From NCBI GenBank assembly GCA_963786955.1, contig CAWBAT010000004.1, positions 640,001-704,000 of the forward strand: a DNA stretch of 64,000 bases, read 5' to 3'. This document shows, one piece after another, positions 1 through 51,786 of this stretch; the first letter of the stretch is position 1, and each line of letters opens with the position of its first letter. The notes under the pieces are model-generated. The model was not told the origin of the DNA. It searched no databases and was given only the letters and a program-made list of their open reading frames with translations. Both the position numbers and the translations under genes were made by a program. This DNA comes from an uncultured Acidimicrobiia bacterium (GTDB lineage: Bacteria; Acidobacteriota; Terriglobia; Versatilivoradales; Versatilivoraceae).

Positions 1-824
1 ATTAACTCATTCGAAATGACGGTGGAGGTTGCCCCTGTATCGACGAGAAACCGGTAAGGGCCGGAGTCATTGATATGGGTTTCGACGATCATGAGTCCAA
101 AGAAGGGTTGAGAGGATATTTCATAGCTTCTTTGTGAGTCTTTAATTCTTCCCACCACTTCATTTTCAAAACTACGAAAGAACGTGAGGAGTGCTTCAGC
201 ATTTTGCACTCTTTCGGGGTAAAACCTCGGCTTCAAGGAGAGATACCTCTCTAGCGACTTCGCTTGTTGCACATAGTTCCGAGTGGCTCCATATCCCTCG
301 CTGGCATAAAAGTAGTTATCTTCCATCTCTGGAGCTAGCTGAATGGCCTTCTGGAAGTGAGCTAAACTCTGGTCAAACTGAAGTCGGCTCAACAAGAGGC
401 GACCCATCGCAAGGTGTGCCTCGGCCTGCTTTGAATTCATCCGTAAACTTTTTTCTAATTGAGCCTCAGCTTTTTTAAACTCACCCTCCCGGAGAAGATA
501 CATCCCATAGGCTGTGAGAATAAATGGATCATTGGGGTTGCGGTGCAATGTTTTCTTAATCTGTTCTGAAGCGAGGTCGAGTTCATCTTCGATTAATAAG
601 ATTTTGATTAATAGCAAGGAGGCTTGTACGGAATCAGGTGACAACTTGAGGACTCTCCGGACTTCCTCTTTGGCAGCAGACAGTTCTCCCTCTTTCAAAA
701 GTACCTGGGCCTTGTCCATCGGACTCACCCTTGATGCCTGAGCGTGTTCGGCGAAAGCCACCAGAAAAAATAGCCAGAAAAAGCAGCCTGACCATAATCT
801 TGGAGACTCAATCCACTTCTTCAT
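1..824 (-). CDS. Secreted TPR-repeat aspartyl protease (retropepsin-like), 3' end beyond window; absent from the ORF track
   Basis: Manual translation from ATG 824: MKKWIESPRLWSGCFFWLFFLVAFAEHAQA signal peptide, then TPR-like helices, then PYRFLVDTGATSTVIS (DTGA aspartyl protease motif) at about 60-10. Confidence 0.85.
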   Translation of the reverse strand, partial: MKKWIESPRLWSGCFFWLFFLVAFAEHAQASRVSPMDKAQVLLKEGELSAAKEEVRRVLKLSPDSVQASLLLIKILLIEDELDLASEQIKKTLHRNPNDPFILTAYGMYLLREGEFKKAEAQLEKSLRMNSKQAEAHLAMGRLLLSRLQFDQSLAHFQKAIQLAPEMEDNYFYASEGYGATRNYVQQAKSLERYLSLKPRFYPERVQNAEALLTFFRSFENEVVGRIKDSQRSYEISSQPFFGLMIVETHINDSGPYRFLVDTGATSTVISNEL

Positions 825-1614
825 CACGCCTCATTTTTCTTAACCGCAATTTTTGCTTCCATAAGAATTTCATCATGCTCCGGAAATGATATCCCTTGGC
901 TCTATAGGAAAAAGCTTTCGCACTTTCTCTTAGATGTTGATGAACCATTCCGGCGGCGGGGTTGTATACGACTTTCCAACCATTTTCATGAATCCTGAAA
1001 CACAAGTCGACGTCCTCGAAATAAAGAAAATAGCGCTCATCAAATAGCTCGGGGCCCGCGGCGGACCGGCGAATCATCATGGCAGCTCCCAATCCCCAAT
1101 CCACGGTCATCAGGTTATTGTGATCCCAATCTATCATGAGATGCTGCCGTACCAAAGGGTGGTTGGCGAACCTATTCTTCCAGGGTCCTCGGCGCATCAG
1201 TAAAGTCTGATAGGAGTAAAAACGTCGGCAGGAGTATTGTAATGTGCCATCGGGGTATTTGAGCTTTGGCAGGACAATCCCGGCTTTCAAGTCCGCCTGA
1301 ATCGTTTGAAGAAGCACCTGGAGAGCCTGGGGTTCGACCCGGACATCTGGGTTCAACAAAAGGACATATTCGCTTTGACTCAAGCGATAGCCCATGTTTG
1401 CCGCGCGGCCAAACCCAAGATTTGAAGGGCTTTGAATTAACCGCAGGTTCGGCCAATCGGCTTCATTAAAAGAAGCCATTTCTTCCGGGACCCCATTATT
1501 GATGACAAAAATTTGATCGTCAACGACGGTGTCGCTGCTCAGAAGAGATGTCAAGCATGATTGCAGCAAGTCTCCAGATCGAAAGTTGACAATGATGACA
1601 GAGAGAAGGCTCAT
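808..1614 (-). CDS. GT2 glycosyltransferase (WbbL/rhamnosyltransferase-like)
   Basis: LSVIIVN, NLGFGRAAN, LLLNPD and FDERYFLYFEDVDLC motifs. Confidence 0.9.
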   Translation of the reverse strand: MSLLSVIIVNFRSGDLLQSCLTSLLSSDTVVDDQIFVINNGVPEEMASFNEADWPNLRLIQSPSNLGFGRAANMGYRLSQSEYVLLLNPDVRVEPQALQVLLQTIQADLKAGIVLPKLKYPDGTLQYSCRRFYSYQTLLMRRGPWKNRFANHPLVRQHLMIDWDHNNLMTVDWGLGAAMMIRRSAAGPELFDERYFLYFEDVDLCFRIHENGWKVVYNPAAGMVHQHLRESAKAFSYRAKGYHFRSMMKFLWKQKLRLRKMRRDEEVD

Positions 1615-4600
1615 TGCATGACATCTTCATGGATTCGCTCGAATAATTCGGTCAACTGGCCCACACCAAAATTTTCTTTAACTCGCAAGCGGGCGGTATT
1701 CCCCATTTCCCTCCGTCGGTCAGCGTCTTGAAGGAGAGTGACTGTGTCCCGGATAAAATCTTCAGGAGTATCTGAAATCATGAGGTCACGACCACTTTCA
1801 AAAGGATATCCTTCTGCGCATCTTCTCGTTGCGACCACTGGTTTTCCCATTGCCATGGCTTCAAGAACCTTTCCACGTAATCCTGCACCGCTGATGACCG
1901 GCGCGACAAAAACAGAGTGTCTCTGCAAGTAAGGTCGAACATCCGGAACATAATCGGTGAAAATGACGGAATCTCGATGACTGTAGATTAGAATTTCGGG
2001 TGGAGGAAATCGGCCAATAATCGTGATATTCGCCCCCGGTACCGCCTGGAGAATCCCCGGCCAAATTTTCTGGAAAAAATATTGAAGTCCTTCAACATTG
2101 GGGGGATGCTTAAAATATCCTATAAAAATCAGACTATTCGGCGTTTCCTCGCAAGTGGGACAGGATGCAAAGTACTCGGTATCCACACCTGTCCGCGCTA
2201 AACGAATATTGATCAACTTCAGTTTCGTTTCCAAGTAACTCTGGTCGACCGAAGACAAGGCGACAACGGATTTGACCTTGCGGCACAGATGACTTTCATA
2301 AGCCTCCATCAGTTTCCATTTGAAAAAACTCTTTGCTTTGAGATAAAGACCCGATGCCCGCTGAAAATTCCTTTTGTAAGCCAAACTCAGCACTTCATGA
2401 TGCGTTAAGAGGCTCGGGTACTCACTGAGGTCGGGAATGAAGTTTAAGGTATGCAGGTACTCGCACTGCACCAGATCCAAGTCTTCCTTCTTCAACTGAT
2501 TGAGAACTTCTTTGCGCATGAGCAGGCACGCATTGATCACCGCAAAGATTTTAGAAAAAAGAAACGAGCTCTTTAACTCATCACTGTAGGGATGCAGCGT
2601 AATCGTTTTGACTTCCTTACAGTACTGACGAAGATAATCAGCGTGCAGCTTTTCTTCGTCAGTTTCCATAAAAGAAAGCAAAGTAATTTCATGATGGGCT
2701 GATAATCCTTTGATCAAATTAACGACGACCCATGACCCGTCGAGCCCGAGCCTAGGCAATCGTTTCGAGACAATCAATATCTTCTTGGGTCGGTTATGGA
2801 TCTTTCCCTTGAGCAGATATTTGTGCCTATAGAGGAACCACGAGTCAATGATTGCCAACGTTTCCTCGTCGGAAAGCCGTGACAGCCGATTGGAGCTTAA
2901 CCGGTTCCAGAGGATCCTGGGAATTTTGAGGAGTGCTCCCAGAAATGCCATGAGAATAGCAAAACGTCTTCGACTCAAATCTAACAGAATCCGGAATGGA
3001 AGCTTCGCCAGGTGATTAATGAACATCCGGACGGAAGTAATATTTTGCCAGAAGAAAACAAACAGGTTTCTCCAGATAAGGTAATCAATTTTTCTGTTAC
3101 CGAGCTTGGTTGCATTGGTGCTGCGATGCTTATGAGTGACCTTGCTAGCCGGGGAAAAAAGGACTCCATACCCTTTTTTCCAGGCCCGATAAGAGAGATC
3201 TGCATCCTCGACATAGCCGGGATAATAAATCTCGTTAAAGCCCCCGAGCGCCAGAAATTTGGCTCGATCATAAGCGCTCGATCCTCCCCCGGCATAAAAC
3301 ACAGGCACGTATTGGCGCAACTCATCTTGCTCACCCGGTTGGGAATGTCCCACGTAAACGCAACCAAAGACCATCGTTCCAAATGTCTTACCGGTCTCTT
3401 CGCGAATCTTCGATTGGTCGTAATTAAAAATCTGCGAAGTCACAGCAAAGATATCCGGTTGATCAAACCCTTTCAATAATGGGCCGAGAAAACCGGGTTC
3501 CACAATCACATCATTGTTCAACAAAACGACAATATTATTCTTGGCGCATTGAACCCCGATGTTGTTTCCACGACTGAAGCGATAGTTCTTGTCGAGTTCG
3601 ATCAGGCGTACGTCAGGGTAATGGATACGAACGTAATCCTGCGACCCATCGGTACTCCCGTTGTCGACCAGGATGATCTCGTGATCTCCTCCTTCAAATT
3701 CGACCGCTTTCTTAACAGCGTCCAGGCATTCCTGAAGCAATTCCTTTTTATTCCAAGACAAGACAATAATCGAGGCTTTAGCGGGTTTGTAGCTCCGGGG
3801 CAGATCTACGAGGTCATATCCCCTGGTAGAAACAATCAACTGGTCATAGAACTCTTCGACCTGCTTGATGAGAAATTTTCGATTGAAGTGGTGTCTGATC
3901 ACTAACCGGCTTTGGCGACTCATCCGCTCACGGAGTTCCGGGTCACCCAACAGCCGGACAACCGACTCAACCACAGCACCTGAATCCGCAGACTGGATGA
4001 GCAGGCCGGTCTGCTCATGAAGGACCGCTTCGGGCGTCCCGCTCACCTGTGTGGCGACCACAGGTATTCCCACCGACATGGCCTCCAGGACACTAAGCGG
4101 CAAGCCTTCATAGATTGAAGTCAACAAGAACAAATCCAAAGCCGACAATATATCGGCAATGTCCTGTCGCTCACCGGCAAAGATCACGTAAGCGGAGAGT
4201 CCTAAGGCCTCTACCCTTTTCAAGCAATTGTCGCGCTGGGGGCCATCCCCTACGAAGAGGAATCGAGCCTGCGGATAGCTCTTGATAATTCCTGGAATGG
4301 CGTCAATAGTATACTCATGCCCCTTTTGAGCGCTGAACCGCGCTACCGTACCGATCAGGAACTGATCGTCGCCAACCCCGAACTCTGCACGAACGTGTCT
4401 ACGGCCTTCCTCGGAAAATTGATATTTTGAGACTTCAATACAATTCCGAATGAGTTTGACGCGAATCGGATCAATCTTATAGTCGCGGATAAGAAGCCGC
4501 TTGTTTGCTTGAGAGACCGCTATTGTGTAATGCAGGCAAAATGAGATGATCTTCTTGACGAGCTTTTTGGTTCCGACCCCGGCTCGTTTTCCAGTTGCCA

Positions 4601-4991
4601 ATTGGAATGCAAGGTGTTCGGTTGCCAAACGCCATGGGACACGTGCGCAGAAAGCCGCTAAAATGGGGAAGAAGCATCCAAAAGAGTTGTTGAGATTGAA
4701 ATGAACCAATGCCGGGCGCTGCTCAAGAAAGTATCGAAAGGGCACCAAAAAATTAGTGAGCGGGGAACGCCCGTGCGTTTCGACATAGTCCACTTGGATC
4801 TGGGCTTTCTGGAAAAAATCGGCAAGAGGGAGAGTATTAGGCCTTTGGGTGAGGGCGACTCTGGGTTGATATTTTTCTCGATTAATTCCCGGAATCAGCA
4901 ATTTGAGATATTCTTCGGCCCCACCGAGAAAAATCGCGTCGGAGAAAAAAATGATCTTCTGCGGCTCAGACATCAGCTTTTTTCCCCTCAC
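1611..4991 (-). CDS. Tri-domain glycosyltransferase fusion GT4-GT2-GT4 (ATG 4973 is an alternative start)
   Basis: N-terminal GT4 (GGAEEY, EGLPLSVLEAM), central GT2 (VDNGSTDGS, LLNND, YVEDADL), C-terminal GT4 (GLRGKVLEAMAMGKPVVAT). Confidence 0.9.
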   Translation of the reverse strand: MRGKKLMSEPQKIIFFSDAIFLGGAEEYLKLLIPGINREKYQPRVALTQRPNTLPLADFFQKAQIQVDYVETHGRSPLTNFLVPFRYFLEQRPALVHFNLNNSFGCFFPILAAFCARVPWRLATEHLAFQLATGKRAGVGTKKLVKKIISFCLHYTIAVSQANKRLLIRDYKIDPIRVKLIRNCIEVSKYQFSEEGRRHVRAEFGVGDDQFLIGTVARFSAQKGHEYTIDAIPGIIKSYPQARFLFVGDGPQRDNCLKRVEALGLSAYVIFAGERQDIADILSALDLFLLTSIYEGLPLSVLEAMSVGIPVVATQVSGTPEAVLHEQTGLLIQSADSGAVVESVVRLLGDPELRERMSRQSRLVIRHHFNRKFLIKQVEEFYDQLIVSTRGYDLVDLPRSYKPAKASIIVLSWNKKELLQECLDAVKKAVEFEGGDHEIILVDNGSTDGSQDYVRIHYPDVRLIELDKNYRFSRGNNIGVQCAKNNIVVLLNNDVIVEPGFLGPLLKGFDQPDIFAVTSQIFNYDQSKIREETGKTFGTMVFGCVYVGHSQPGEQDELRQYVPVFYAGGGSSAYDRAKFLALGGFNEIYYPGYVEDADLSYRAWKKGYGVLFSPASKVTHKHRSTNATKLGNRKIDYLIWRNLFVFFWQNITSVRMFINHLAKLPFRILLDLSRRRFAILMAFLGALLKIPRILWNRLSSNRLSRLSDEETLAIIDSWFLYRHKYLLKGKIHNRPKKILIVSKRLPRLGLDGSWVVVNLIKGLSAHHEITLLSFMETDEEKLHADYLRQYCKEVKTITLHPYSDELKSSFLFSKIFAVINACLLMRKEVLNQLKKEDLDLVQCEYLHTLNFIPDLSEYPSLLTHHEVLSLAYKRNFQRASGLYLKAKSFFKWKLMEAYESHLCRKVKSVVALSSVDQSYLETKLKLINIRLARTGVDTEYFASCPTCEETPNSLIFIGYFKHPPNVEGLQYFFQKIWPGILQAVPGANITIIGRFPPPEILIYSHRDSVIFTDYVPDVRPYLQRHSVFVAPVISGAGLRGKVLEAMAMGKPVVATRRCAEGYPFESGRDLMISDTPEDFIRDTVTLLQDADRRREMGNTARLRVKENFGVGQLTELFERIHEDVMQ

Positions 4992-5386
4992 TCACGAAGA
5001 TGAGGGGCATAGGACCCCGCTTCGCAAAGCTTTCCGCATTGTCAGACTTAAAGTATAACCTAGTGTATTCATAGGCAGCAACCGGGCATTAAACCGATGA
5101 TGAGAGGCTACAGATGGACGGCACAACTCCCCCATAATTCCTGAATCTTCTTGCTGAGACTGGCCAGAGATGCCATCTCCATTCGACTGAAGAGGGGCAA
5201 CGATCGCTCAATCCCTTCAATAATTGTAGACCCAATGTCGGACAGCTGCTACAAGCAAGAGCCTCCTCCCCCCCTGCCCAATTCCATTCCAGATTGTAAA
5301 AAACACAGGACACCAGAAAGGCCAATTCGATCAATCCACCACAAAGGCGACGGTCAAGAAATAAGGATGTTTAAAAAAATACTGCG

Positions 5387-6622: not shown

Positions 6623-6682
6623 ATTCCTCTCACTTTCCCTATGCTTGCGACAAAGTTCATTGGTGGGTAAGGACCGCGTTGC

Positions 6683-9764: not shown

Positions 9765-9879
9765 AAGAGGAACCAGGGGTAGAGTAAGTCTGAGAAATTT
9801 TGTTTGCCGGCTCAGGGCTTCAGCCCTGAAACAGTGGCTGTTCATGAGAATGACCCATCAATCGAAGGGAATATAAAAA

Positions 9880-42168: not shown

Positions 42169-42735
42169 CTAAGATCTCGACTTGTTCTTTTTCAACCTTG
42201 AACAAAAAAGGGCTCCGGTCATGATCACCAATATCACAAATCGCAGTGGGAGAAGCATTAACCTCATGCCCGCCCAGTACCCAGAGTAAAGGGGCTTTCG
42301 GATTCTCTGTGCCCATGACCGTGGAAGCAGCGCACCCTCACGAGCTCTGGCAGAAACGATGGCCTTGAGATAGCTCGGCTTCAAATACTCACAGTCTAGA
42401 TTTTCGTTGAATACTAAGAGACGTTTGCCTCCGCAGAGAAGTGCAAACGTCTTCGTTCTAGCCCGCTCAGCATCCTGGCACCAAAGAACCGCAATAACAT
42501 CGTAGCTCGCTTTGCGAATTCGCCTGCAAAGTTGCAGCGCCGCCCAATATTCCTGACGATGTGGGAAGACCAGAACTTTTTGAATTTGGGGTTGTCCCTC
42601 GTAATCCAATAAATCTGCCGAGCTGCACAGAAGGTCGATCTGGGGAGATCGGAACACGGAGTCATGCAGAATTCCTAATGCCCTCGTGACATTGGGAATT
42701 GTCGATGTGCAAACCAAAAGAACTCTTTCAGCCAT
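42169..42735 (-). CDS. Hypothetical GT9-N-terminal-like protein with C-terminal membrane anchor
   Basis: RVLLV..IDLLC..RIRKASYDVIAVLW..LLVFNEN; overlaps the GT4 stop codon. Confidence 0.55.
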   Translation of the reverse strand: MAERVLLVCTSTIPNVTRALGILHDSVFRSPQIDLLCSSADLLDYEGQPQIQKVLVFPHRQEYWAALQLCRRIRKASYDVIAVLWCQDAERARTKTFALLCGGKRLLVFNENLDCEYLKPSYLKAIVSARAREGALLPRSWAQRIRKPLYSGYWAGMRLMLLPLRFVILVIMTGALFCSRLKKNKSRS

Positions 42736-43919: not shown

Positions 43920-44117
43920 CAGCAGGATCACCCAATACAATTGAAAGTCAGCATCTCGAGGTTCAGTCAGCGATAAATTCTACAAATTCATTAACGAATC
44001 CCATGTTTCCGATCCGACCCTGAAGGCTAGGATGGAAGCCTTTTTTCAAGAGAAAACCTGTCAGGGTCTCTTCAAGCTTGATCATGGAAACGTGTTCTTT
44101 AAAATGAAAAGGTACTC

Positions 44118-45689: not shown

Positions 45690-45731
45690 TCATGAAAGGA
45701 TTTGGGAGCCGGGAGATCCTACTCGGTGATT

Positions 45732-46409
45732 TCAGTTACTGAACCGGAATTTCACCAGGGTCCAGATGGCTGAAAACCCATCACGCCAGGTGATTTTCTT
45801 CCCTTGCTCAAAGCTTCTTCCAGCATAGGAAATGGGGACTTCAACGATCCGTAATCGTCGCTTCAAGAGCTTAGCCGTAATCTCCGGCTCGAAGTTAAAT
45901 CGATTGGAAACGATTCGAATGCTTTGGATCGTTTCTCTGGGAAAAAGCTTATAACAAGTCTCCATGTCTGTGATGGATGTCTGGAAGAGAATATTGGTCA
46001 TGAGAGTCAGGAATTGATTTCCAAAGTTATGGAGAGAGCTCATATTGTGACGTTTTCCGCTAAACCTTGAACCAAACACGACGTCCGCCTGTCCTTCCAA
46101 TAAAGGTTGAAGCAGCTTAGGATATTCCCCTGGATCATATTCCAGGTCGGCATCCTGGACGATGACAAAATCCCCGGTTGCATGCTGAAACCCTGTTCTT
46201 AGGGCAGCCCCTTTCCCCATGTTTCGTTCATGATAAAGCACTCTCACTCCCTCTTTCTCCAACTGTTGCAGTAGCCCGCGAGTGCCGTCAGTCGAATAAT
46301 CATCGACGAGGATAATCTCCTTCTCGAGGGAGACAGATTGCACTTTGTTGACAATTTCCAACAAGGTCGATCGTTCGTTATAGACAGGAATGATGACTGT
46401 CAGTTTCAC
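45732..46409 (-). CDS. GT2 (DPM-synthase-like) glycosyltransferase
   Basis: IIPVYNE, NMGKGAA, QDADLEYDP, DMETCYK, GKKITWRDG. Confidence 0.9.
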   Translation of the reverse strand: MKLTVIIPVYNERSTLLEIVNKVQSVSLEKEIILVDDYSTDGTRGLLQQLEKEGVRVLYHERNMGKGAALRTGFQHATGDFVIVQDADLEYDPGEYPKLLQPLLEGQADVVFGSRFSGKRHNMSSLHNFGNQFLTLMTNILFQTSITDMETCYKLFPRETIQSIRIVSNRFNFEPEITAKLLKRRLRIVEVPISYAGRSFEQGKKITWRDGFSAIWTLVKFRFSN

Positions 46410-46429
46410 CGGACTCTACCTACTTATTC

Positions 46430-47290
46430 TCAACTCTTTGACGGTCTCGTCGAAATATACTCCAGCAAAGCATCCTGCCAGGATTTTAAATCATCCATGC
46501 CCCATTTTTTGAGGTGCGCATTCTCCATTACGGAAAAGGCCGGTCGCCTGGCAGGCGATTTGAATTCAGCCGAAGTCGTCGGCGAAAGGTCTGCTTTGAT
46601 TCCAACAAATTCAAAGACGGCCGCCGCAAATTCATACCAGGAGCAGGCACCTTGAGACGTCACGTGATAAAGTCCATAATGCTTAGTCTGGATCAACTCC
46701 GCGACCTTTCGGGCTAATTCGCGGGTACTAGTTGGAGTCAGCACTTGATCGTGGACCACACGAATCGAGTCACGGGCTATAGCTTTTTGCAGCATCGTTT
46801 CAACAAAATTACCGCCCTTTCCGCTACTGCCTGCATGACCATACAGACCACAGGTCCGTATCACAAAGCTCTTTTCCCAAAGATAGCGGATGATTTTCTC
46901 TCCCGCGAGCTTCGAGACTCCATAAGCATTGACCGGGTTGGTTTCATCCTGCTCCAACAGGGGCCGACGAAGGTTCCCCTCAAAGACATAATCCGTGCTG
47001 AAATGGACGAGAGTGGCGTCAACGGCTCGGGCCGCTATGCATAGATTCTTAACGCCTAAGGCATTGACTTGGAAAGCGGCGAGGCTCTCCGTTTCACACA
47101 AATCGACTTTGTGAAAAGCAGCCGTATTGATGATAATTTCCGGGCGGAGGGCCTGGACTTGTTGAACCACCTGCTCGGGAATGGTCACATCGAGGATCGC
47201 ATGGGTCGTTCCAGAAACTTGATGCGCTAATAGGGATTTTCTGAGGTCAGACCCGAGCTGGCCATTCGCCCCGATCAGCAGGATCTTCAA
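46430..47290 (-). CDS. rfbD: dTDP-4-dehydrorhamnose reductase
   Basis: GANGQLG, STDYVF, YGVSKLAGE, DQ-x-x-TPT, ARRPAFS. Confidence 0.9.
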   Translation of the reverse strand: MKILLIGANGQLGSDLRKSLLAHQVSGTTHAILDVTIPEQVVQQVQALRPEIIINTAAFHKVDLCETESLAAFQVNALGVKNLCIAARAVDATLVHFSTDYVFEGNLRRPLLEQDETNPVNAYGVSKLAGEKIIRYLWEKSFVIRTCGLYGHAGSSGKGGNFVETMLQKAIARDSIRVVHDQVLTPTSTRELARKVAELIQTKHYGLYHVTSQGACSWYEFAAAVFEFVGIKADLSPTTSAEFKSPARRPAFSVMENAHLKKWGMDDLKSWQDALLEYISTRPSKS

Positions 47291-48390
47291 TGGTCGGCTC
47301 CCTGCATCCTTCGCATCGGGTTCCCCGCGGCGGGCTGGGACGAGGGGCCCGAAGTAACGTCAAAGACGGATCCGGTCACTTGGATAATTTTGTCGGCTTC
47401 CTCCAGGAGTTTCATCCAGGCAATGTTGTTGTAGCGAGGATTGTCAAAATCCGAATAGCGGTATCGCGAAATGCTTTCCACCATATCTTTCACAGCCTCT
47501 TCTACCGAAACCGCTGGCTTAAAATCTAGTGTTCTCTCCAGCTTTTTCCCGGAAACACGGTAGCTCCGGACCCCATGATAACGATAATCCGGCTTCAATT
47601 CTGTCTTGATCCCTACCTCTCTGAGAGCTTCAATGACCCGCAAGGCCAACTCCGAGATCCGGAAATTCCCATAGACCACATTGAAAATTTGGCCTTTCAC
47701 CTTACTTTCCTCTGCCTCCAAACATGTAATGTACGCACGGGCTGCATCCCGCACATCCACAAGAGGACGCCACATCTCTCCACCATAATGGGTGGTGAGA
47801 TATCCCTTCGAGAGGACATCTTTCAAGAACGTATTGACTACCAGATCGTAGCGCATCCTTGGAGAAAATCCGTAGATCGTCCCTTTGCGAAGAATGACCG
47901 GAGAAAAGTCCTCATCGTTCATGGACAACAAGATCCTCTCGGCTTGGTACTTTGAGCTCGAGTAGGCCGCTTTTGGATTCACCGGGACTTCTTCATCCAA
48001 GAGAATATCCTTTTCATCATTCCCGATGCCAACATCATAAATGGAACAAGAGGATGCAAATATGAATCGCCGGACGCCTCGTTTCTTGCAAATCTTGGCG
48101 AGGTGTTCCGTCGCTTGGGTATTCATCTCAAAATTGGCTTTGGGATTGTATTCGGCAGTAGGATCATTGGACAAACCACTCAAATTAATCACTGCATCCA
48201 CTTCGTCCAACACCGAACTATCCATGGTTCGGATATCTCCGGCCACAAGCTTTATTCTTTCCAATACTTCACGGATACCCTGGTCGCCGTAATACAGACG
48301 GTCAAATACCTTGACCGCATAGCCGCGCTCCAACAATTCTCGAACTAAAACGGAACCTACATAACCTGCGCCTCCAACCACTAAGATCAT
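47287..48390 (-). CDS. NAD-dependent nucleotide-sugar epimerase/dehydratase (extended SDR)
   Basis: GGAGYVGS, SSCSIY, YSSSK, GFSPRMRYDLVVN. Confidence 0.9.
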   Translation of the reverse strand: MILVVGGAGYVGSVLVRELLERGYAVKVFDRLYYGDQGIREVLERIKLVAGDIRTMDSSVLDEVDAVINLSGLSNDPTAEYNPKANFEMNTQATEHLAKICKKRGVRRFIFASSCSIYDVGIGNDEKDILLDEEVPVNPKAAYSSSKYQAERILLSMNDEDFSPVILRKGTIYGFSPRMRYDLVVNTFLKDVLSKGYLTTHYGGEMWRPLVDVRDAARAYITCLEAEESKVKGQIFNVVYGNFRISELALRVIEALREVGIKTELKPDYRYHGVRSYRVSGKKLERTLDFKPAVSVEEAVKDMVESISRYRYSDFDNPRYNNIAWMKLLEEADKIIQVTGSVFDVTSGPSSQPAAGNPMRRMQGADH

Positions 48391-48585
48391 CTTAATCCTC
48401 CGCAGAAGATTTAGTCAGTTGCGCTCGTGCCAACTGTGAGCCCCCAACTCAATGACTCTCTTGGGGGGACTCATTTCTATATAACAAAGTTAAAATCAGT
48501 TTGAAACGCCCAAAAAACGAATGATTGCACAGTTTACGTGAAGAATCGACTCGAGATCCAAATTTGTCGACTTTAACCTATCGTT

Positions 48586-49647
48586 TCAGATCTTGGGCAC
48601 GAGTCCTAGAACCTTACTAAAACGGTAGAGTTTTGACTGCTTGAGCCTTTCCAGCTTGGCCTGACAAAGGCCTAATTCATTGTTTAGGCGAAGCGCCCAC
48701 TCAGTTCTTTCATCATATTCCCTCTGGAGCTGGGTGATCTGTTCGTCCCTTTGCCTTAGGTCATCCGATAGGCGATTGGCCCAGTCCGTCCTCTCCAAAA
48801 ACTCCTGATGGCACTTAGTCAGTTGGGCAGTGCTCTCTTCAACTTGTTGGTCATATTCTTTTTGTAGCGTTAATATTCTTCTATCGAGTTCTTTAATCCG
48901 GGATTCCAGTTCACCAATCCACTCCTCTTTTTCCCTCAGGAGATTGGCTGTAGAAGGTAAAAAGAGCAAATTCTGATATGGGGGGATGCGCCCTGCTTTC
49001 TTGGCACATACCGCCAGGAAAAAGTTCGAAGTGGTCTTCCATTTGGGATCAAGTCTCTCAATGTGAGTGTTTAGCGCTCTGGAAGGTTCAGGGTCCCCCA
49101 AGAAGATAGAGGAGACTTGATTCTGAAAACAGATTTCAACCTCCTCAAAACATCGCTTCAAGTAGGACGAGAATTCTTCATGGTCGAACTCATGCATGTG
49201 GTAAGGGTTAATTTCCTGCCGTTCTTCCGTGTAATAGAGCCGATTGGGCGTGGAAATCACCAAAAGTCCATCCTGCTTCAAAACTCGGGATATTTCATCG
49301 AGCAGACGTTCTTGCTCAGAAAGATGTTCCACAACTTCGAAACAGACCACCAGATCTAGACTTTCCGATCTTACAGGTAGTTGAGTGCAGTTTGCCACGA
49401 GGAAGTCTATTCCCGGTTGCGCATAGTTTTCACGCGCATAAGCAATCGTTTCCCTGGAGATGTCAACTGCAAAGACACTCATGGCGGACTCCGCTAGAAT
49501 AGCCGAGCCATAGCCAGTCCCGCACCCGAGGTCTAACACTTGTCGTGAGGACGCGAAACCACGGGCGAACAAGTATCTGGAAAGGTGCTCGTTCAATAAG
49601 TCGGGCTCGACCTTGCCAGGGACAACGCGCTCGCCGGTAAACTCCAT
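48586..49647 (-). CDS. SAM methyltransferase with C-terminal coiled coil (WbdD-like glycan chain terminator candidate)
   Basis: EFTGERVVP, EHLSRY, LDLGCGTGYG; heptad tail with two ERT-D/E-WA repeats and a basic amphipathic end; directly after wzt. Confidence 0.75.
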   Translation of the reverse strand: MEFTGERVVPGKVEPDLLNEHLSRYLFARGFASSRQVLDLGCGTGYGSAILAESAMSVFAVDISRETIAYARENYAQPGIDFLVANCTQLPVRSESLDLVVCFEVVEHLSEQERLLDEISRVLKQDGLLVISTPNRLYYTEERQEINPYHMHEFDHEEFSSYLKRCFEEVEICFQNQVSSIFLGDPEPSRALNTHIERLDPKWKTTSNFFLAVCAKKAGRIPPYQNLLFLPSTANLLREKEEWIGELESRIKELDRRILTLQKEYDQQVEESTAQLTKCHQEFLERTDWANRLSDDLRQRDEQITQLQREYDERTEWALRLNNELGLCQAKLERLKQSKLYRFSKVLGLVPKI

Positions 49648-49669: not shown

Positions 49670-50965
49670 TTACACCAACAAATGATTTGAAGAGACGTGG
49701 ACTAACTCGATCTGACAATCAAATCTCATATAACCATATACCGGCAGGCGCTGCTTTACCGACAGCAAGATTGCGTTGTCGATCCAATCGCAAATGACAT
49801 TGTCCAGGTGGGTCCCATTCGCCACAGCGAGTGAAAAGTAATAGTTTCCAGGATGCAAATAGGGCACTTGAACACGGAAATCCACCGTATAGATCTGGAA
49901 CCCGTCTGCCGGGGGTAAGACAATGCCTTCGGCAGAGGTATTAATTCCAGCGATATCTTCCCCCAGGCGATTCCTCATGAGGAATCCCACAATCGGGTGA
50001 GGGAGTGAGCGATTAAATTTAATCGAGACCCTGACGGTCAATGAATCTCCATGAGTGAGGCTATCGCACGGGCACCCTTGGCCGTCCAATAACTGAACTC
50101 CGAGGATTTCCGCCTGTCCATTTCCCCAGCGGCGGTCAATATTCGGGAGGGACTGCACAATGAGATCGGAAGGGCCGATAGAATCCGGTCGTGGAGGCAA
50201 CGAGGCTCGTTCCCCCTGCAAAGTCGCAAAGGGATCTTTTCGCTGTGTGATCTCTGCCAGGTAATGGCCAACAACTTCGTCCGGGTTGCCGACTTCTTTC
50301 ACCCTGCCGTGATCCAGCCATACGGCTGATTCGCAAAGATTCTTGACTGCAGTCATATCATGAGAAACAAACAAAATGGTCTTCCCCTCTTCCTTCATCT
50401 GGCGAAGCTTGCGGATGCAGCGCTGCTGAAAGTAAACATCCCCCACGGACAACGACTCGTCGACGAGGAGTATTTCCGGATCAACATGAATCGAAACTGC
50501 AAAAGCCAAGCGGACGTACATGCCACTTGAGTATGTTTTGACCGGTTTATTGATAAATTCTCCAATCTCCGCAAATCGCTCAATATCAGGAAACTTTTCT
50601 TCAATTTCAGAGGTGGAAAGACCCATAATCGCCGCATTGAGAAAGACATTTTCCCGCCCAGAAAATTCCGGATTAAATCCCGCCCCCAATTCCAACAGTG
50701 CAGCGACTCTTCCGCCGAGAGACACTTGCCCCGAGGTAGGCTGCAGTGTCCCGGCAATGATTTGAAGCAAAGTGCTCTTGCCAGAGCCATTCTCCCCAAT
50801 AACCCCAAACGTCGTCCCTCTTCTGACAGTGAAGGTAACATCCGAGAGAGCCCAAAAATCCGTGTGATATTTTTTTCGCCTTTGGAAAAGTTCCTTTAGC
50901 CTGTCGACAGGTTTTGAATAGATCCTGTAGTTTTTGAAGACTCTTTCAACGTTGACGGCGTCCAT
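49670..50965 (-). CDS. wzt: Polysaccharide ABC transporter ATPase with C-terminal carbohydrate-binding (Wzt_C) domain
   Basis: FWALSDV, GENGSGKST, YSSGM-x-x-RLAF, RWGNG-x-AEI; ATG 50965 overlaps the wzm stop. Confidence 0.95.
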   Translation of the reverse strand: MDAVNVERVFKNYRIYSKPVDRLKELFQRRKKYHTDFWALSDVTFTVRRGTTFGVIGENGSGKSTLLQIIAGTLQPTSGQVSLGGRVAALLELGAGFNPEFSGRENVFLNAAIMGLSTSEIEEKFPDIERFAEIGEFINKPVKTYSSGMYVRLAFAVSIHVDPEILLVDESLSVGDVYFQQRCIRKLRQMKEEGKTILFVSHDMTAVKNLCESAVWLDHGRVKEVGNPDEVVGHYLAEITQRKDPFATLQGERASLPPRPDSIGPSDLIVQSLPNIDRRWGNGQAEILGVQLLDGQGCPCDSLTHGDSLTVRVSIKFNRSLPHPIVGFLMRNRLGEDIAGINTSAEGIVLPPADGFQIYTVDFRVQVPYLHPGNYYFSLAVANGTHLDNVICDWIDNAILLSVKQRLPVYGYMRFDCQIELVHVSSNHLLV

Positions 50966-51786
50966 CACAACACGTCCGCAAAACTGCGTTTGGAGTATTT
51001 GAAGAATAGCCCACCCCCAATAAAAACAGCGATGGCCACTGCATAAAGCAGCAGTAATGACGCCAGGTGGGGAAGTTCGTGGTTGAGCAGGCAATTGCGA
51101 TATGCGGTCACCACAGCAGCGAGAGGGTTGAGTTGCATGACAATTCTCAAATTTTGCGGGAGTCTCTGCTCGTCGAAAAAAATAGGCGTAAACCAGAACC
51201 AAAAAGTCAGGACAACCGTCAGGATTTGGGCCGTGTCCCTTAAAAATACCTGCACACTCGCGAGAAACCAGCTCAGTCCCAAAGCGAACAACGAGAGCGC
51301 AAAAAGATAGACGGGAATGAGGATGATCATCCAACTGAACGATTGCAGATAAAAGAAGCAAACGATCTGGAATATCCCCAGTCCGATGAAATGGTTGACG
51401 AGATTCGCAATCAGTACCGAGACGGGCAGGATTTCGGACGGAAAGAGAGTCTTGGTAATGAGATTGGAGTGGTCAACAAGAATATTGCTTGAACGCGTCA
51501 ACGTTTCCTGGAAGACCAGCCAGGGGAGTATTCCGCAGAACAGGTAAATGGCAAAGCTCGAAGTTCCCGCCTCTGGACCCAGTCTTTGTTTCATGATAAT
51601 GGAAAACACAAAAGTGTAGCTGGCAAGCAATACGAGAGGATGGATCACTGACCAAAATAGACCCATCGCGGACCCGACATACCGGCTCCTCAGGTCGCGA
51701 ATAACCAAATTCTTGATTAACCCGCGATGCCGGATCAATTTTCCAATGAAGTTAAAACCGGTTTGTAGGTATGTCACCGAGGACAT
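50965..51786 (-). CDS. wzm: Polysaccharide ABC transporter permease
   Basis: RDLRSRYVGS-x-MG-x-FW, RDTAQI, TPIFF, LNPL, FADVL. Confidence 0.95.
   Translation of the reverse strand: MSSVTYLQTGFNFIGKLIRHRGLIKNLVIRDLRSRYVGSAMGLFWSVIHPLVLLASYTFVFSIIMKQRLGPEAGTSSFAIYLFCGILPWLVFQETLTRSSNILVDHSNLITKTLFPSEILPVSVLIANLVNHFIGLGIFQIVCFFYLQSFSWMIILIPVYLFALSLFALGLSWFLASVQVFLRDTAQILTVVLTFWFWFTPIFFDEQRLPQNLRIVMQLNPLAAVVTAYRNCLLNHELPHLASLLLLYAVAIAVFIGGGLFFKYSKRSFADVL

What the first reader, a model, noticed from the sequence alone, without database searches (positions are those of the whole stretch)
808..51786. Candidate S-layer glycoprotein system: surface protein, its own T2SS and glycosylation machinery in one 51-kb locus
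Seen: one co-directional minus-strand run (38647 to 16547) goes GT2, DUF2304, TMTC-like GT-C, ECF sigma, anti-sigma, gspE to gspD, the 529-aa secreted protein and a DUF1573 protein. It is flanked by a PPIase, a paralogous surface protein and two glycan blocks. Known: Aeromonas S-layer export uses T2SS-like components, and Geobacillus slg clusters combine Wzm/Wzt, rhamnose enzymes, a terminating methyltransferase and a ligase-like oligosaccharyltransferase. Inferred: this locus builds, exports and glycosylates a surface lattice. I do not know of such a system being characterised in Acidobacteriota.
Basis: partly seen in the sequence, partly recalled or inferred. Interest (0 to 1): 0.85.

Follow-up and report, generated by a model that had tools for sequence, protein, structure and literature searches.

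The report
Secretion system with conserved surface-coat protein
A soil-type Acidobacteriota genome keeps its only type II secretion system next to a gene for an unknown, secreted 52-kDa protein and to sugar-polymer genes, a layout known from the Aeromonas S-layer locus, so the protein is probably a cell-surface coat, though no lattice or sugar attachment has been shown.

Summary
The linkage is also conserved. The secretin gene gspD is followed by a homologue of the 529-aa protein (P529) and a DUF1573 protein in 14 of 17 related loci. The block Wzt - sugar genes - ECF sigma/anti-sigma - gspE lies upstream in 11 of 11 extended loci.

P529 has a signal peptide and no Pfam or NCBIfam match. It belongs to a large family, found here only in Acidobacteriota, with 2981 clusters. 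Its model shows three beta-sandwich domains. The last has the fold of TM1070/ASRT, a superfamily predicted to bind sugars.

The closest known layout is the Aeromonas O11 locus, where spsE-to-spsD plus vapA sit inside a Wzm/Wzt O-antigen cluster.

Corrections:
- This is the genome's only canonical T2SS, not an extra dedicated one.
- Two "genes" are repeat DNA.
- The ligase-like gene is one of at least 7 in the genome.
- P529's codon usage is in the bottom 2%.

A lattice, protein abundance and glycosylation remain untested. My best reading is a T2SS-exported surface coat held by the neighbouring glycan (confidence 0.45).

The parts
49670..51786 (-). Wzm (50965-51786) and Wzt with a Wzt_C glycan-recognition domain (49670 to about 50971): ABC exporter of a lipid-linked polysaccharide
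   Evidence: Pfam ABC2_membrane 5.2e-15; ABC_tran 1.6e-20; Wzt_C 4.4e-30. Wzt is conserved upstream of the T2SS in 10 of the 11 extended loci; the 11th (L057) ends before that point. A second Wzm/Wzt pair lies elsewhere in the genome.
42169..49647 (-). Glycan synthesis genes: methyltransferase next to Wzt (48586-49647), SDR epimerase/dehydratase (47287-48390), RmlD (46430-47290), short polyprenyl-phosphate-sugar-synthase-like GT2 (45732-46409), GT2 (44118-45689), GT1/GT4 (42728-43687) and an unnamed 202-aa protein with a C-terminal TM segment (42169-42777)
   Evidence: RmlD TIGR01214, 301 bits, over the cut-off of 224. The order is conserved in 11 of 11 extended loci, with some members missing.
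38804..42112 (+). Divergent GT2 plus three SAM methyltransferases; seen only in the window's own genus
   Evidence: Pfam; present in L056 and L057 only.
34825..38647 (-). Three-part periplasmic glycosylation set: polyprenyl-phosphate glycosyltransferase-like GT2 (37826-38647), DUF2304 small membrane protein (37399-37836) and a TMTC-like GT-C with TPR repeats (34825-37299)
   Evidence: Pfam/NCBIfam. AF2 model of residues 1-430: pLDDT 78, pTM 0.83. The 34 best PDB rows listed are all GT-C enzymes or GPI-transamidase subunit U, a related multi-pass fold (STT3, ArnT, Pmt4, AftB, AglB, PglB), E from 2.5e-3. D62 and D63 are invariant in 16 sequences. This position is specific to the genus; in other genera GT-C/TPR genes lie just after the DUF1573 gene.
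32822..34785 (-). ECF sigma factor (34153-34785), zf-HC2 membrane anti-sigma (33455-34156) and a secreted 198-aa protein of no family (32822-33418), directly upstream of gspE
   Evidence: Pfam. The trio precedes gspE in 12 of 12 loci that reach it, including one from another family. The anti-sigma and the 198-aa protein are single copy in the genome.
20278..32780 (-). Type II secretion system: gspE 31083-32780, gspF 29583-30797, gspG 29077-29526, gspH/I/J 27279-29189, gspK 26296-27354, gspL 24535-26016, gspM 23727-24347, gspC-like 22951-23706, gspD 20278-22515
   Evidence: Pfam. GspD TIGR02517: 457 bits, over the cut-off of 351. It is the only hit over that cut-off and the only strong T2SSG hit in the genome. 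GspC, G, H, I, J, K, L and M have no paralogue outside the window.
19297..20277 (-). Intergenic region between gspD and P529, with a promoter-like site (19466-19438), a leader of about 140 nt, a Shine-Dalgarno string just before the ATG, and REP-like repeat copies (19968-20049, 20209-20255)
17707..19296 (-). P529: secreted 529-aa protein. The signal peptide is cleaved after residue 26. The mature protein is 51.7 kDa with pI 4.5. It has three beta-sandwich domains: 27-190 cohesin/pilin-like, 190-387 Ig/CnaB-like, and 388-514 TM1070/ASRT-like
   Evidence: No Pfam or NCBIfam family. 2981 representative clusters at E <= 1e-3.
17639..17670 (-). Intrinsic-terminator-like hairpin (14-bp stem, 7 G-C pairs, T run) 37 nt after the P529 stop codon
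16547..17371 (-). Secreted 274-aa partner protein: N-terminal domain of no family plus a C-terminal DUF1573 Ig-like domain; single copy
   Evidence: Pfam DUF1573 2.5e-9. Start and signal peptide come from 16 homologues. It lies downstream of P529 in all 17 family loci. Single copy. Complex prediction with P529 gave weak support.
13145..15946 (+). 933-aa secreted multi-Ig protein that shares only its N-terminal domain with P529
   Evidence: Pfam He_PIG, TIG, ASH. hhalign probability 98.7. Seen next to the locus only in one genome of the same genus (L013).
11560..12495 (-). Parvulin-type (PpiC/PrsA-like) peptidyl-prolyl isomerase with an N-terminal membrane or signal segment
   Evidence: Pfam Rotamase. 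It follows the DUF1573 gene directly in 5 further loci: L066, L067, L068, L071 and L077.
8302..11432 (.). Putative cyclase (8302-9414, -) and two methyltransferases (9880-10641 +, 10650-11432 -): frequent neighbours of the P529/DUF1573 pair in other genera
   Evidence: Pfam. At least one of the three is seen in L014, L015, L017, L019, L020, L022, L027 and L031.
808..8173 (.). Wzx/Wzy-type glycan block: GT2 (808-1614), 1126-aa GT4+GT2+GT1 fusion (1611-4991), Wzy_C protein (5387-6622) and MOP flippase (6683-8173, +). Linkage to the rest is seen only within the genus
   Evidence: Pfam. Conserved in L020; partly present in L013. The Wzy_C gene is one of at least 7 in the genome.

Best explanation
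This is a conserved surface-biogenesis supercluster of the class Terriglobia.

The genome's single type II secretion system (gspE to gspD) sits behind an ECF sigma/anti-sigma pair. P529 follows it as a separately transcribed gene for an acidic, 52-kDa, all-beta protein rich in Thr, Ser, Ala and Gly.

Inferred mechanism:
1. P529 crosses the inner membrane by Sec.
2. It folds in the periplasm with help from the co-encoded secreted DUF1573 protein and, in some lineages, a parvulin PPIase.
3. It leaves through the secretin as a main T2SS cargo.
4. It stays on the cell as a surface coat. Its C-terminal domain, which has the TM1070/ASRT (predicted sugar-binding) fold, would hold on to the methyl-capped deoxyhexose polysaccharide made and exported by the neighbouring Wzm/Wzt cluster. 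This would work as the Aeromonas A-layer does, which is tethered by O-antigen LPS.
5. The TMTC-like GT-C enzymes kept beside the pair may in addition O-glycosylate it.

Shown: gene content, conservation of the linkage, signal peptides, predicted folds, and the single-copy status of the T2SS and the partner.

Inferred: export by this T2SS, surface retention, glycan binding, glycosylation, and any crystalline lattice.
For: 1. Linkage. gspD -> P529 -> DUF1573 occurs in 14 of 17 family loci. Two more are cut at a contig end and one lacks gspD. Four of 5 further genomes from the species collection show the same order (L066, L067, L071, L077; L068 has no gspD within 5.1 kb). This holds while P529 identity falls to 25-35% and GspD stays near 50%.
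2. The block Wzt-(MT)-epimerase-RmlD-GT2-GT1-202aa-ECF-anti-sigma-198aa-gspE is kept in 11 of 11 extended loci. PII/GlnD beyond Wzm are not seen in any of them, so the block has an edge.
3. The same layout is characterised in Aeromonas: O-antigen genes, spsE..spsD, vapA (469 aa, 52 kDa), then wzm and wzt. The A. salmonicida layer is tethered by LPS (PMC4413209, passages).
4. P529 has a signal peptide, a mature pI of 4.5 and 51.5% A+T+G+V+S.
5. The model (pLDDT 80.4, pTM 0.71) has three beta-sandwich domains. Matches are to surface adhesins, pilins and cohesins (Z 7-10). The C-terminal domain matches TM1070 (Z 12.0, rmsd 2.7, 107 of 116 residues) and ASRT (Z 8.4). That superfamily is predicted to bind sugars (PMC2739507, abstract and section 4 part 1). 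Its conserved Asn at the end of strand 2 fits the invariant N413.
6. In 16 of 16 larger family members scanned, the only other domains are structural or adhesive (TIG, Big_7, DUF11, lectin, FG-GAP, ASH/DUF1573, DUF5719). No enzyme domain was found. Six members carry four tandem C-domains, as binding modules do.
7. P529 has its own expression signals: a promoter-like site and a 14-bp terminator hairpin. The string GAGGAGAGAAA lies directly before the start codon in 9 loci, with close variants in 3 more, and 5 loci show TTGACA-17-extended -10 sites.
8. Weak hint of transcription. In RNA contigs of 3 metatranscriptome studies laid on 16500-22600, cover in two runs (40 and 13 contigs) lies almost only on P529 and its leader. 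The tool warns that contigs cannot rank genes.
9. Partner. P529 with the DUF1573 protein scored 0.34 (runs 0.51, 0.34, 0.00) against a best control of 0.00, which is 'weak support'. The mark was reached by 116 of 157 solved complexes and 2 of 215 mismatched pairs. At 0.60 or under it was reached by only 18 of the 157 and by both passing mismatches. The runs agree in at least 0% of contacts, and partner pLDDT is at least 72.
10. GT-C/TPR genes whose match includes the N-terminal GT-C part lie within 6 kb in 7 of 14 full-length loci. The genome holds only 3 such genes.
Against: - No similarity to any known S-layer, SLH, VapA-type or RsaA-type family: 0 Pfam and 0 NCBIfam families, and no PDB sequence relative.
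- Codon adaptation was measured against the fusA-tuf-ribosomal-protein operon. P529 scores 0.693, which ranks about 3704 of 3770 ORFs (mean 0.762, sd 0.031). Its GC3 is 0.487 against 0.567 for the genome. That is not what is usual for a cell's most abundant protein, although selection on codons looks weak in this genome.
- Its 5-nt Shine-Dalgarno match is ordinary: 31% of ORFs reach 5 or more.
- The T2SS is the only one found, so neighbourhood alone could reflect one favoured cargo among many.
- Two genomes have the P529/DUF1573 pair without gspD nearby (L016, L068).
- In Bryobacterales most proteins carrying the C-domain are not near a secretin. About 12 of about 60 are, and several occur per genome. 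This fits a general surface or secreted module better than a single lattice protein.
- The mature protein has 5 cysteines, two of them invariant.
- The related genomes are kin, so the counts overstate independence.
- To my recollection (no call), cultured Acidobacteriaceae have been described with capsules, not S-layers.
Confidence: 0.45

Rival explanations
1. P529 forms a true two-dimensional S-layer. Its glycan is built by the Wzm/Wzt rhamnose pathway and moved onto the protein by the Wzy_C ligase-like enzyme, as in Geobacillus slg clusters. A T2SS dedicated to it exports it.
For: - Wzm/Wzt with Wzt_C, a methyltransferase next to Wzt, RmlD and GTs are present and conserved with the T2SS.
- The Geobacillus slg scheme has the same parts (PMC2943079, passages).
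- P529 is rich in Thr and Ser.
- The Aeromonas layout gives a precedent for export.
Against: - The T2SS is not dedicated.
- The Wzy_C gene sits in a separate Wzx-type block. I saw that block linked only within the genus, and the gene is one of at least 7 in the genome.
- No initiating transferase and no RmlA-C were found in the window.
- Codon usage is in the bottom 2%.
- There is no homology to known S-layer proteins.
- In the Gram-negative precedent the glycan tethers the layer and is not attached to it.
Confidence: 0.2
2. An ordinary general T2SS, where P529 is just one soluble or adhesive cargo. The glycan blocks are LPS O-antigen or exopolysaccharide loci that lie nearby by shared ancestry, with no functional tie to P529.
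For: - It is the sole T2SS in the genome.
- The family has many paralogues away from secretins in Bryobacterales.
- A second Wzm/Wzt pair and many GT and Wzy_C genes show that surface-glycan loci are plentiful.
- The compared genomes are relatives, so synteny may be inherited.
Against: - The order survives across about 10 genera while the flanks (PII/GlnD) do not.
- P529 and DUF1573 are single copy and always paired.
- The predicted sugar-binding fold of the conserved C-domain gives a direct reason for the glycan link.
- The Aeromonas case shows that such co-location can be functional.
Confidence: 0.25
3. P529 is the subunit of a secreted fibre or pilus-like polymer. The DUF1573 protein, whose domain I recall being grouped with the PapD-like Ig folds, is its periplasmic chaperone, and the secretin is the outer-membrane conduit.
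For: - Fold matches to pilins of Gram-positive bacteria, a Saf chaperone-usher subunit and the CLIPPER domain of a fibrillar adhesin.
- The DUF1573 protein is always adjacent, secreted and single copy.
- Weak complex score of 0.34 against control 0.00.
Against: - The fold matches are generic Ig-like sandwiches, with Z below 10 and 5-12% identity.
- No usher, sortase or isopeptide motif was looked for or seen.
- The model shows complete domains with no obvious missing strand.
- That DUF1573 belongs with PapD-like folds is recalled, not tested.
Confidence: 0.07
4. P529 and DUF1573 are structural accessories of the T2SS itself, for example secretin-associated or pilotin-like parts, rather than cargo.
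For: Their position directly after gspD in most genomes.
Against: - P529 has its own promoter-like site and terminator.
- It diverges much faster than the Gsp proteins: 25-35% identity against about 50-75%.
- Family members occur far from any secretin, and as parts of 1100-1900-aa surface proteins.
- It resembles no known T2SS part.
Confidence: 0.03

Closest known systems
Aeromonas hydrophila AH-1 / A. salmonicida S-layer locus (spsE-spsD T2SS genes plus vapA, inserted in the Wzm/Wzt O11-antigen cluster)
   Same: The gene order matches: deoxyhexose/GT genes, then T2SS genes E, F, G, H, I, J, K, L, M, a small ORF and D, then a gene for a secreted protein of about 50 kDa, with Wzm/Wzt glycan genes on the flank. 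The cargo sizes are close (VapA 52 kDa, mature P529 51.7 kDa). The Aeromonas layer is tethered by LPS (PMC4413209, passages read; window).
   Different: - In Aeromonas the sps genes are described as a specific S-layer T2SS. That Aeromonas also has a general T2SS is my recollection, not taken from a call. Here only one T2SS is found.
- Here an ECF sigma/anti-sigma pair heads the operon, and a DUF1573 partner follows the cargo.
- Sequence relatedness of P529 to VapA could not be tested, because no VapA sequence was in hand.
- The phylum differs.
- No lattice is known here.
Geobacillus stearothermophilus / Paenibacillus alvei slg S-layer glycosylation clusters
   Same: Wzm/Wzt exporter, rhamnose-pathway gene, methyltransferase for a chain-terminating cap, several GTs and a Wzy_C protein (PMC2943079, passages; window).
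   Different: - These are Gram-positive systems with no T2SS.
- There the Wzy_C O-oligosaccharyltransferase is part of the cluster. Here it lies in a separate block whose link is seen only in the genus, and it is one of at least 7.
- No WsaP-type initiating enzyme is in the window.
TMTC-type GT-C protein O-mannosyltransferases (multi-pass GT-C domain followed by TPR repeats)
   Same: The 824-aa protein has a GT-C fold, an invariant DD in the first loop and C-terminal TPRs. A polyprenyl-phosphate-sugar-synthase-like GT2 and a small membrane protein precede it. The candidate acceptor is built of beta-sandwich domains. That eukaryotic TMTCs modify cadherin beta-sandwich domains is recalled, not taken from a call.
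   Different: The Pfam TMTC_DUF1736 match is below the cut-off (E 0.024, 15 bits against 27). The acceptor is unknown and could equally be a glycan or lipid A.
ASRT/TM1070 (ASRAH) superfamily of predicted sugar-binding beta-sandwich domains
   Same: P529 residues 388-514 superpose on TM1070 (Z 12.0) and ASRT (Z 8.4). [quoted passage not shown] The superfamily has extracellular members in cell-surface proteins (PMC2739507).
   Different: There is no sequence-level match to the Pfam family or to PDB chains. The conserved Trp of the superfamily is not clearly in the same place. Sugar binding is a prediction even for the founding members.

Membership tests
Type II secretion system (Gsp) | Outer-membrane secretin GspD | tested here: met
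   TIGR02517: 457 bits, over the cut-off of 351. Secretin, Secretin_N and N0 domains are present.
Type II secretion system (Gsp) | ATPase GspE, platform GspF, major pseudopilin GspG | tested here: met
   T2SSE 4.3e-139, T2SSF 9.2e-53, T2SSG 4.1e-37.
Type II secretion system (Gsp) | Minor pseudopilins H-K and assembly proteins L, M, C | tested here: inconclusive
   Three N_methyl proteins. GspK domains have E 2.5e-5 to 1.7e-4, near or below the cut-offs. T2SSM_b is over its cut-off. PilN is over its cut-off, but T2SSL is below. GspC_delta has only E 0.0092. The order and the number of genes fit.
Type II secretion system (Gsp) | Prepilin peptidase GspO | not tested
   None in the window; not searched for in the genome.
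S-layer protein | Self-assembles into a two-dimensional lattice that covers the cell | not testable with these tools
   Needs microscopy or in vitro assembly.
S-layer protein | Among the most abundant cell proteins | tested here: inconclusive
   For: own promoter-like site, strong terminator and a conserved ribosome-binding string. RNA contigs of two runs lie mostly on this gene (which gives no ranking). Against: codon adaptation rank about 3704 of 3770.
S-layer protein | Secreted, acidic, rich in small and hydroxy residues, few Cys/Met | tested here: met
   Signal peptide, pI 4.5, 51.5% A+T+G+V+S, 2 Met, but 5 Cys in the mature protein. This is a loose, non-specific criterion.
S-layer protein | Homology to a described S-layer family or anchoring module (SLH and others) | tested here: not met
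   0 Pfam and 0 NCBIfam families at E <= 0.01. The alignment profile finds no PDB relative; the best hit is E 0.12 to an unrelated ribosomal protein.
Aeromonas-type T2SS/S-layer/O-antigen locus | T2SS genes E to D followed by the layer gene, set within a Wzm/Wzt O-antigen cluster | tested here: met
   Window order compared with Table 1 and the text of PMC4413209. This is likeness of layout only.
Aeromonas-type T2SS/S-layer/O-antigen locus | A T2SS specific to the layer protein, additional to the general one | tested here: not met
   There is one GspD over the cut-off and one strong GspG. There are no paralogues of GspC, G, H, I, J, K, L or M in a 93%-complete assembly.
Aeromonas-type T2SS/S-layer/O-antigen locus | Cargo homologous to VapA | not tested
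   No VapA sequence was available from a tool.
Geobacillus-type slg S-layer glycosylation cluster | Wzm/Wzt, nucleotide-rhamnose genes, GTs, terminating methyltransferase | tested here: inconclusive
   Wzm/Wzt, RmlD (over the cut-off), GTs and a methyltransferase beside Wzt are present. RmlA-C and an initiating transferase are not seen in the window. O-antigen clusters contain the same parts.
Geobacillus-type slg S-layer glycosylation cluster | Wzy_C O-oligosaccharyltransferase that acts on the layer protein | tested here: inconclusive
   A Wzy_C protein is present (3.1e-22). It is one of at least 7 in the genome, and it was seen linked to the locus only in one genome of the same genus. Its acceptor is not testable.
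TMTC-like GT-C glycosyltransferase | GT-C fold with an acidic DD/DE motif in the first extracytoplasmic loop | tested here: met
   The model has pTM 0.83. The best PDB matches are nearly all GT-C enzymes, with probability 1.0 and TM about 0.5, but E only 2.5e-3 and weaker. D62 and D63 are invariant.
TMTC-like GT-C glycosyltransferase | C-terminal TPR array | tested here: met
   TPR_11 7.8e-64, 7 stretches, residues about 425-790.
TMTC-like GT-C glycosyltransferase | Match to the TMTC signature domain (DUF1736) | tested here: inconclusive
   E 0.024, 15.1 bits against a cut-off of 27.
ASRT/TM1070 (ASRAH) domain | Eight-stranded beta-sandwich of that topology | tested here: met
   Z 12.0, rmsd 2.7, 107 of 116 residues aligned to 1nc7. 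Z 8.4 to 2ii7. These stand above the unrelated rows for that domain.
ASRT/TM1070 (ASRAH) domain | Sequence-profile membership, with conserved Trp (strand 1) and Asn (end of strand 2) | tested here: inconclusive
   No Pfam hit at E <= 0.01. The invariant N413 lies at the end of the domain's second strand. The conserved aromatic residue at 397 lies at the end, not the start, of strand 1.

The most novel reading that the evidence does not exclude
P529 founds a large, so far unnamed family (about 3000 sequence clusters, found here only in Acidobacteriota). Under this reading it is the principal surface-coat or S-layer protein of Terriglobia. The cell's T2SS exports it under an ECF envelope switch, with a dedicated DUF1573 periplasmic partner. 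An ASRT-fold lectin domain holds it on a methyl-capped rhamnan. TMTC-like GT-C enzymes O-glycosylate its beta-sandwich domains. That would be the first bacterial counterpart of TMTC-type protein O-glycosylation and the first S-layer system described in this phylum.
Probability: 0.15. Interest if true: 0.85.

Novelty: new variant of a known kind. Interest (0 to 1): 0.62.

Why it matters
[quoted passage not shown] My searches of the held library found no paper describing an S-layer or a T2SS cargo in this phylum.

This locus names a concrete, testable candidate set:
- one secretion system;
- one cargo family of about 3000 clusters with no annotation;
- one partner protein;
- one polysaccharide pathway;
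- one regulator pair.

If the reading holds, it would:
- explain what the T2SS of these bacteria mainly exports;
- give a marker protein for their envelope, useful for metaproteomics, phage-receptor work and studies of soil-particle adhesion;
- extend the Aeromonas way of building an LPS-tethered layer to a distant phylum;
- possibly add a bacterial TMTC-like protein glycosylation route.

Tried and rejected
- **Self-consistent codon-bias ranking.** The dominant axis is set by sulfatase, DUF1254/DUF1214 and similar genes, not by translation genes. P529's rank on it (3610 of 3770) says nothing about expression. I replaced it with a reference built from the fusA-tuf-ribosomal operon. Only EF-Tu and EF-G in that reference were identified by a tool; the other ORFs are taken as ribosomal from their position.\n- **Transcription start from RNA contigs.** A contig end near 19431 looked like a start site just after the -10. 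The unmatched tail resembles the promoter of a variant strain, so no start can be claimed.\n- **Parts of 16500-22600 without RNA contigs.** Most of gspD and DUF1573 have no cover in runs X2 and X3. Contigs cannot show absence or rank genes.\n- **Habitat labels of the three runs.** The runs hold 10-12% of the sampled words and I did not use them for any claim.\n- **Rfam.** No RNA family was found in the window, so the 980-nt gap before P529 is not a known leader or riboswitch. It holds REP-like repeats.\n- **Shared C-terminal domain with the 933-aa protein.** hhalign gives probability 0.3, so this is rejected. Only the N-domain is shared.\n- **ECF-type promoter shared by the sigma gene and P529.** Inspection by eye found none. 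The sigma genes share an A-tract plus TTAGACTTTT, while P529 genes show sigma-70-like sites. Its supplementary tables were not opened and might list the orthologue's abundance.

Full report

Yes. The ORF list and Pfam scans reproduce the described run on the minus strand, in this order:
- GT2 (37826-38647) and DUF2304 (37399-37836);
- an 824-aa protein with a multi-pass N-terminal half and seven TPR_11 stretches (34825-37299);
- ECF sigma (34153-34785), a zf-HC2 anti-sigma (33455-34156) and a 198-aa secreted protein of no family (32822-33418);
- a full gsp set: E, F, G, three N-methyl minor pseudopilins, K, L, M, a weak C and D (32780 down to 20278);
- the 529-aa protein, called P529 here (17707-19296);
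- a DUF1573 protein.

GspD passes NCBI's equivalog cut-off (457 bits against 351).

The flanks are as stated:
- a parvulin PPIase;
- a 933-aa Ig-domain protein;
- a Wzx/Wzy-type glycan block (808-8173);
- a Wzm/Wzt block with RmlD (over its cut-off), several GTs and methyltransferases (38804-51786).

Four corrections are needed.
- The DUF1573 gene most likely begins at 17371. That start gives a signal peptide like those of its homologues.
- Wzt begins near 50971.
- The ORFs at 16057-16497 and 12585-12926 are read-throughs of repeat DNA. One is a four-copy tandem array with a 126-nt period at 15958-16503. The others are REP-like elements, which also occur at 19968-20049 and 22691-22892.
- The 933-aa protein shares only its N-terminal domain with P529 (hhalign probability 98.7, E 1.7e-16; nothing in the C-terminal half).

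**2. Is the T2SS P529's own?**

No, not in the sense of an extra system. In the 5.65-Mb, 93%-complete assembly:
- only the window's secretin passes the GspD cut-off;
- only the window has a strong GspG;
- tblastn with the window's GspC, G, H, I, J, K, L and M finds nothing elsewhere.

The other four secretins and the other GspE/F-like genes belong to other systems.

**3. Is the linkage conserved?**

P529 homologues occur in 25 of 41 related genomes searched, and in 20 of 24 genomes of the same family. I fetched 20 kb around 20 of these homologues and compared them with all window proteins by tblastn. Of the 17 loci from the same family:
- 14 have gspD, then P529, then DUF1573 on one strand;
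- 2 end at a contig edge inside P529;
- 1 (L016) has the pair but no gspD within 9.3 kb.

A scan of one genome per species found 318 stretches encoding a relative. All 80 that were kept carry Acidobacteriota labels, apart from three 'Acidimicrobiia' titles; those three contigs are the same ones as three of the relatives. The scan adds five new full-length loci. Four have gspD upstream and one (L068) has none within 5.1 kb. All five have DUF1573 downstream, and in all five a PPIase follows.

I then extended 11 family loci upstream. In 11 of 11 the order is Wzt, (methyltransferase), epimerase, RmlD, (GT2), GT2, GT1, the 202-aa protein, ECF sigma, anti-sigma, the 198-aa protein, gspE. PII and GlnD, which lie beyond Wzm in the window, appear in none of them. 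The conserved block therefore has an edge.

The GT2-DUF2304-GT-C/TPR trio, together with the divergent GT2 and methyltransferases, sits between the 202-aa gene and the sigma gene only in the window's own genus. In other genera, one to three GT-C/TPR genes lie just after the DUF1573 gene, often with the two methyltransferases and the cyclase.

These genomes are relatives, so the counts are not independent events. Even so, P529 identity falls to 25-35% while the order is kept.

**4. What is P529?**

- It has a signal peptide. The mature protein is 503 aa, 51.7 kDa, with pI 4.5, 51.5% A+T+G+V+S, five Lys and five Cys.
- It has no Pfam or NCBIfam family. A profile of 27 homologues finds no PDB chain.
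- A word-indexed search found 44 unnamed homologues. A full profile search of 1.84 billion representatives found 2981 clusters at E <= 1e-3 and 1251 at <= 1e-30. Most are 500-680 aa with the same architecture.
- An AlphaFold2 model from the alignment (pLDDT 80.4, pTM 0.71) is all-beta, with three domains.
  - Residues 27-190 resemble cohesins, a CLIPPER domain and pilin domains (Z 7-8).
  - Together with residues 190-387 they align to the C-terminal regions of streptococcal antigen I/II and to PrgB Ig domains (Z 9.3-9.8).
  - Residues 388-514 match Thermotoga TM1070 (Z 12.0, rmsd 2.7, 107 of 116 residues) and the Anabaena sensory rhodopsin transducer (Z 8.4).
[quoted passage not shown] Its near-invariant Asn at the end of strand 2 fits P529's invariant N413.
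- The C-domain is the most widely conserved part. It occurs alone or in pairs in many Bryobacterales proteins (about 12 of about 60 are within 3 kb of a secretin). It occurs four times in tandem in six listed family members.
- In 16 of 16 larger relatives scanned, the accompanying domains are TIG, Big_7, DUF11, a lectin, FG-GAP, ASH/DUF1573 and DUF5719. None is an enzyme domain.

This profile fits a structural or adhesive surface protein with a glycan-binding anchor module.

**5. Expression signals**

The evidence is mixed.

For high expression:
- a promoter-like site at 19466-19438, and a 14-bp hairpin with a T run 37 nt after the stop codon;
- the string GAGGAGAGAAA directly before the start codon in 9 loci, with close variants in 3 more, and TTGACA-17-extended -10 sites 100-150 nt upstream in five loci;
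- RNA contigs from three metatranscriptome studies. In two runs (40 and 13 contigs laid on 16500-22600) the cover lies almost only on P529 and its leader. In the third (6 contigs) it lies on P529 and gspD. The tool states that contigs cannot rank genes, so this is only a hint.

Against high expression:
- codon adaptation measured against the fusA-tuf-ribosomal operon is 0.693, rank about 3704 of 3770 ORFs, with GC3 of 0.487 against 0.567;
- the 5-nt Shine-Dalgarno match is common in this genome.

The whole locus is slightly AT-richer than the genome (0.491 against 0.515). The Geobacillus review notes the same for glycan clusters.

**6. The partner**

The DUF1573 protein is secreted and single copy. 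It is present downstream of P529 in all 17 family loci and in the five further full-length loci.

A complex prediction of mature P529 with it gave 'weak support':
- score 0.34 (runs 0.51, 0.34, 0.00), with a best control of 0.00;
- the mark was reached by 116 of 157 solved complexes and 2 of 215 mismatches;
- at 0.60 or under it was reached by only 18 of the 157 and by both passing mismatches;
- the runs agree in at least 0% of contacts, and partner pLDDT is at least 72.

I read the protein as a possible dedicated periplasmic helper, in the way lipase-specific foldases serve T2SS cargo. That analogy is recalled, not taken from a call.

**7. The glycosylation candidates**

- The N-terminal 430 residues of the 824-aa protein model with pTM 0.83. 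The 34 best PDB rows listed are all GT-C enzymes or GPI-transamidase subunit U (STT3, ArnT, Pmt4, AftB, AglB, PglB, Emb). Probability is 1.0, but E is only 2.5e-3 and weaker.
- D62 and D63 are invariant in 16 homologues.
- With its TPR array this is the TMTC architecture. The DUF1736 signature is below its cut-off.
- The two short GT2s (37826-38647 and 45732-46409) resemble polyprenyl-phosphate sugar synthases, below the cut-offs. Such enzymes would supply a periplasmic GT-C.
- The genome has only three such GT-C genes.
- The acceptor is unknown. It could be P529, another protein, or a glycan.
- The Wzy_C protein cannot be assigned as an oligosaccharyltransferase. It is one of at least seven and lies in a block whose link to the locus I saw only within the genus.

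**8. Comparison with what is known**

The closest system is the Aeromonas S-layer locus. In A. hydrophila AH-1, ORFs 5-16 are spsE, F, G, H, I, J, K, L, M, orf2, spsD and vapA (469 aa, 52 kDa). They lie in the middle of the Wzm/Wzt-dependent, rhamnose-containing O11-antigen cluster. The authors note the same situation in A. veronii and A. salmonicida, whose A-layer is tethered to the cell by LPS (PMC4413209, passages).

The window copies this layout gene for gene. It differs in these ways:
- it has no second T2SS;
- an ECF pair heads the operon;
- a DUF1573 partner and GT-C enzymes are present;
- the cargo has no detectable relation to known layer proteins.

The Geobacillus slg scheme (PMC2943079, passages) shares the Wzm/Wzt-rhamnose-methyl-cap logic. 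That logic is equally typical of O-antigen synthesis. Its defining step, transfer to the protein by a clustered Wzy_C enzyme, has no conserved counterpart here.

**9. Verdict**

The best-supported mechanism is a T2SS-exported surface coat protein retained by the co-encoded polysaccharide (0.45). The rivals are:
- the full S-layer-glycoprotein reading (0.20);
- an unrelated general-cargo reading (0.25);
- a fibre with a chaperone (0.07);
- a T2SS accessory (0.03).

My searches of the held library for Acidobacteria with S-layer, T2SS, type II secretion, secretome or DUF1573 found no description of such a system. Papers outside that library were not searched. I class it as a new variant of a known kind: the Aeromonas design in a new phylum, with a new cargo family.

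Noticed in passing
window 15958-16503; 12772-12965; 19968-20049; 20209-20255; 22691-22892: Intergenic repeat DNA. There is a tandem array of four copies with a 126-nt period. An 80-90-nt REP-like element with a palindromic GC-rich core is scattered, in both orientations, through the gaps around gspD, P529 and the 933-aa gene. Together they create spurious ORFs of 113 and 146 aa.
   Followed up: partly
window 34786-34830 and the equivalent places in L052-L062, L032: Just before the ECF sigma gene, 11 of 13 genomes share an A-tract followed by TTAGACTTTT or a close variant. One of them belongs to another family. Two loci carry the element twice. It could be the promoter or an operator of the sigma/T2SS operon.
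   Followed up: no
window 32822-33418 and 42169-42777: Two single-copy genes of no known family are as firmly conserved in the block as the Gsp genes. One encodes a secreted 198-aa protein between the anti-sigma gene and gspE (12 of 12 loci). The other encodes a 202-aa protein with a C-terminal TM segment after the GT1 gene (11 of 11).
   Followed up: partly
L025, L026, L027 (G020, G022, G013): In one genus with complete genomes the DUF1573 gene is flanked by two P529 paralogues, and extra DNA (2-3 kb) separates gspD from them.
   Followed up: no
proteins P0109, P0117, P0140, P0174, P0175, P0181: Family members with four tandem copies of the TM1070/ASRT-like C-domain. Some also carry DUF11 or DUF5719.
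   Followed up: partly
G000 C5:6852-9363, C5:678524-684513, C6:1004205-1009116 and others: A set of sulfatase and DUF1254/DUF1214 genes has the most extreme codon usage in the genome and dominates a self-consistent codon-bias ranking. Several of these ORFs look split, with sulfatase domain halves in adjacent ORFs.
   Followed up: no
G000 C4:462560-463741 and C4:112490-113671: Two EF-Tu genes with identical scores: a duplicated tuf.
   Followed up: no
G000 C6:947823-949924: A second Wzm/Wzt pair (32% and 40% identity to the window's) lies elsewhere. Either pair could serve the O-antigen proper.
   Followed up: no
G000 C4:894817-896400, C5:1316148-1317632 and 14 further matching segments: The C-terminal half of the 933-aa protein (residues about 410-933, two repeats, weak DUF5719 match) is a multi-copy module in this genome.
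   Followed up: no
window 52164-63637: Outside the finding lie PII and GlnD, a zinc alcohol dehydrogenase, MauE/DoxX with a rhodanese, a histidine kinase with a sigma-54 activator, a lone receiver, a Nudix protein and a sigma-70-family (group 3-like) factor. At 3-827 lies a TPR protein that ends in an aspartyl-protease-like stretch.
   Followed up: no
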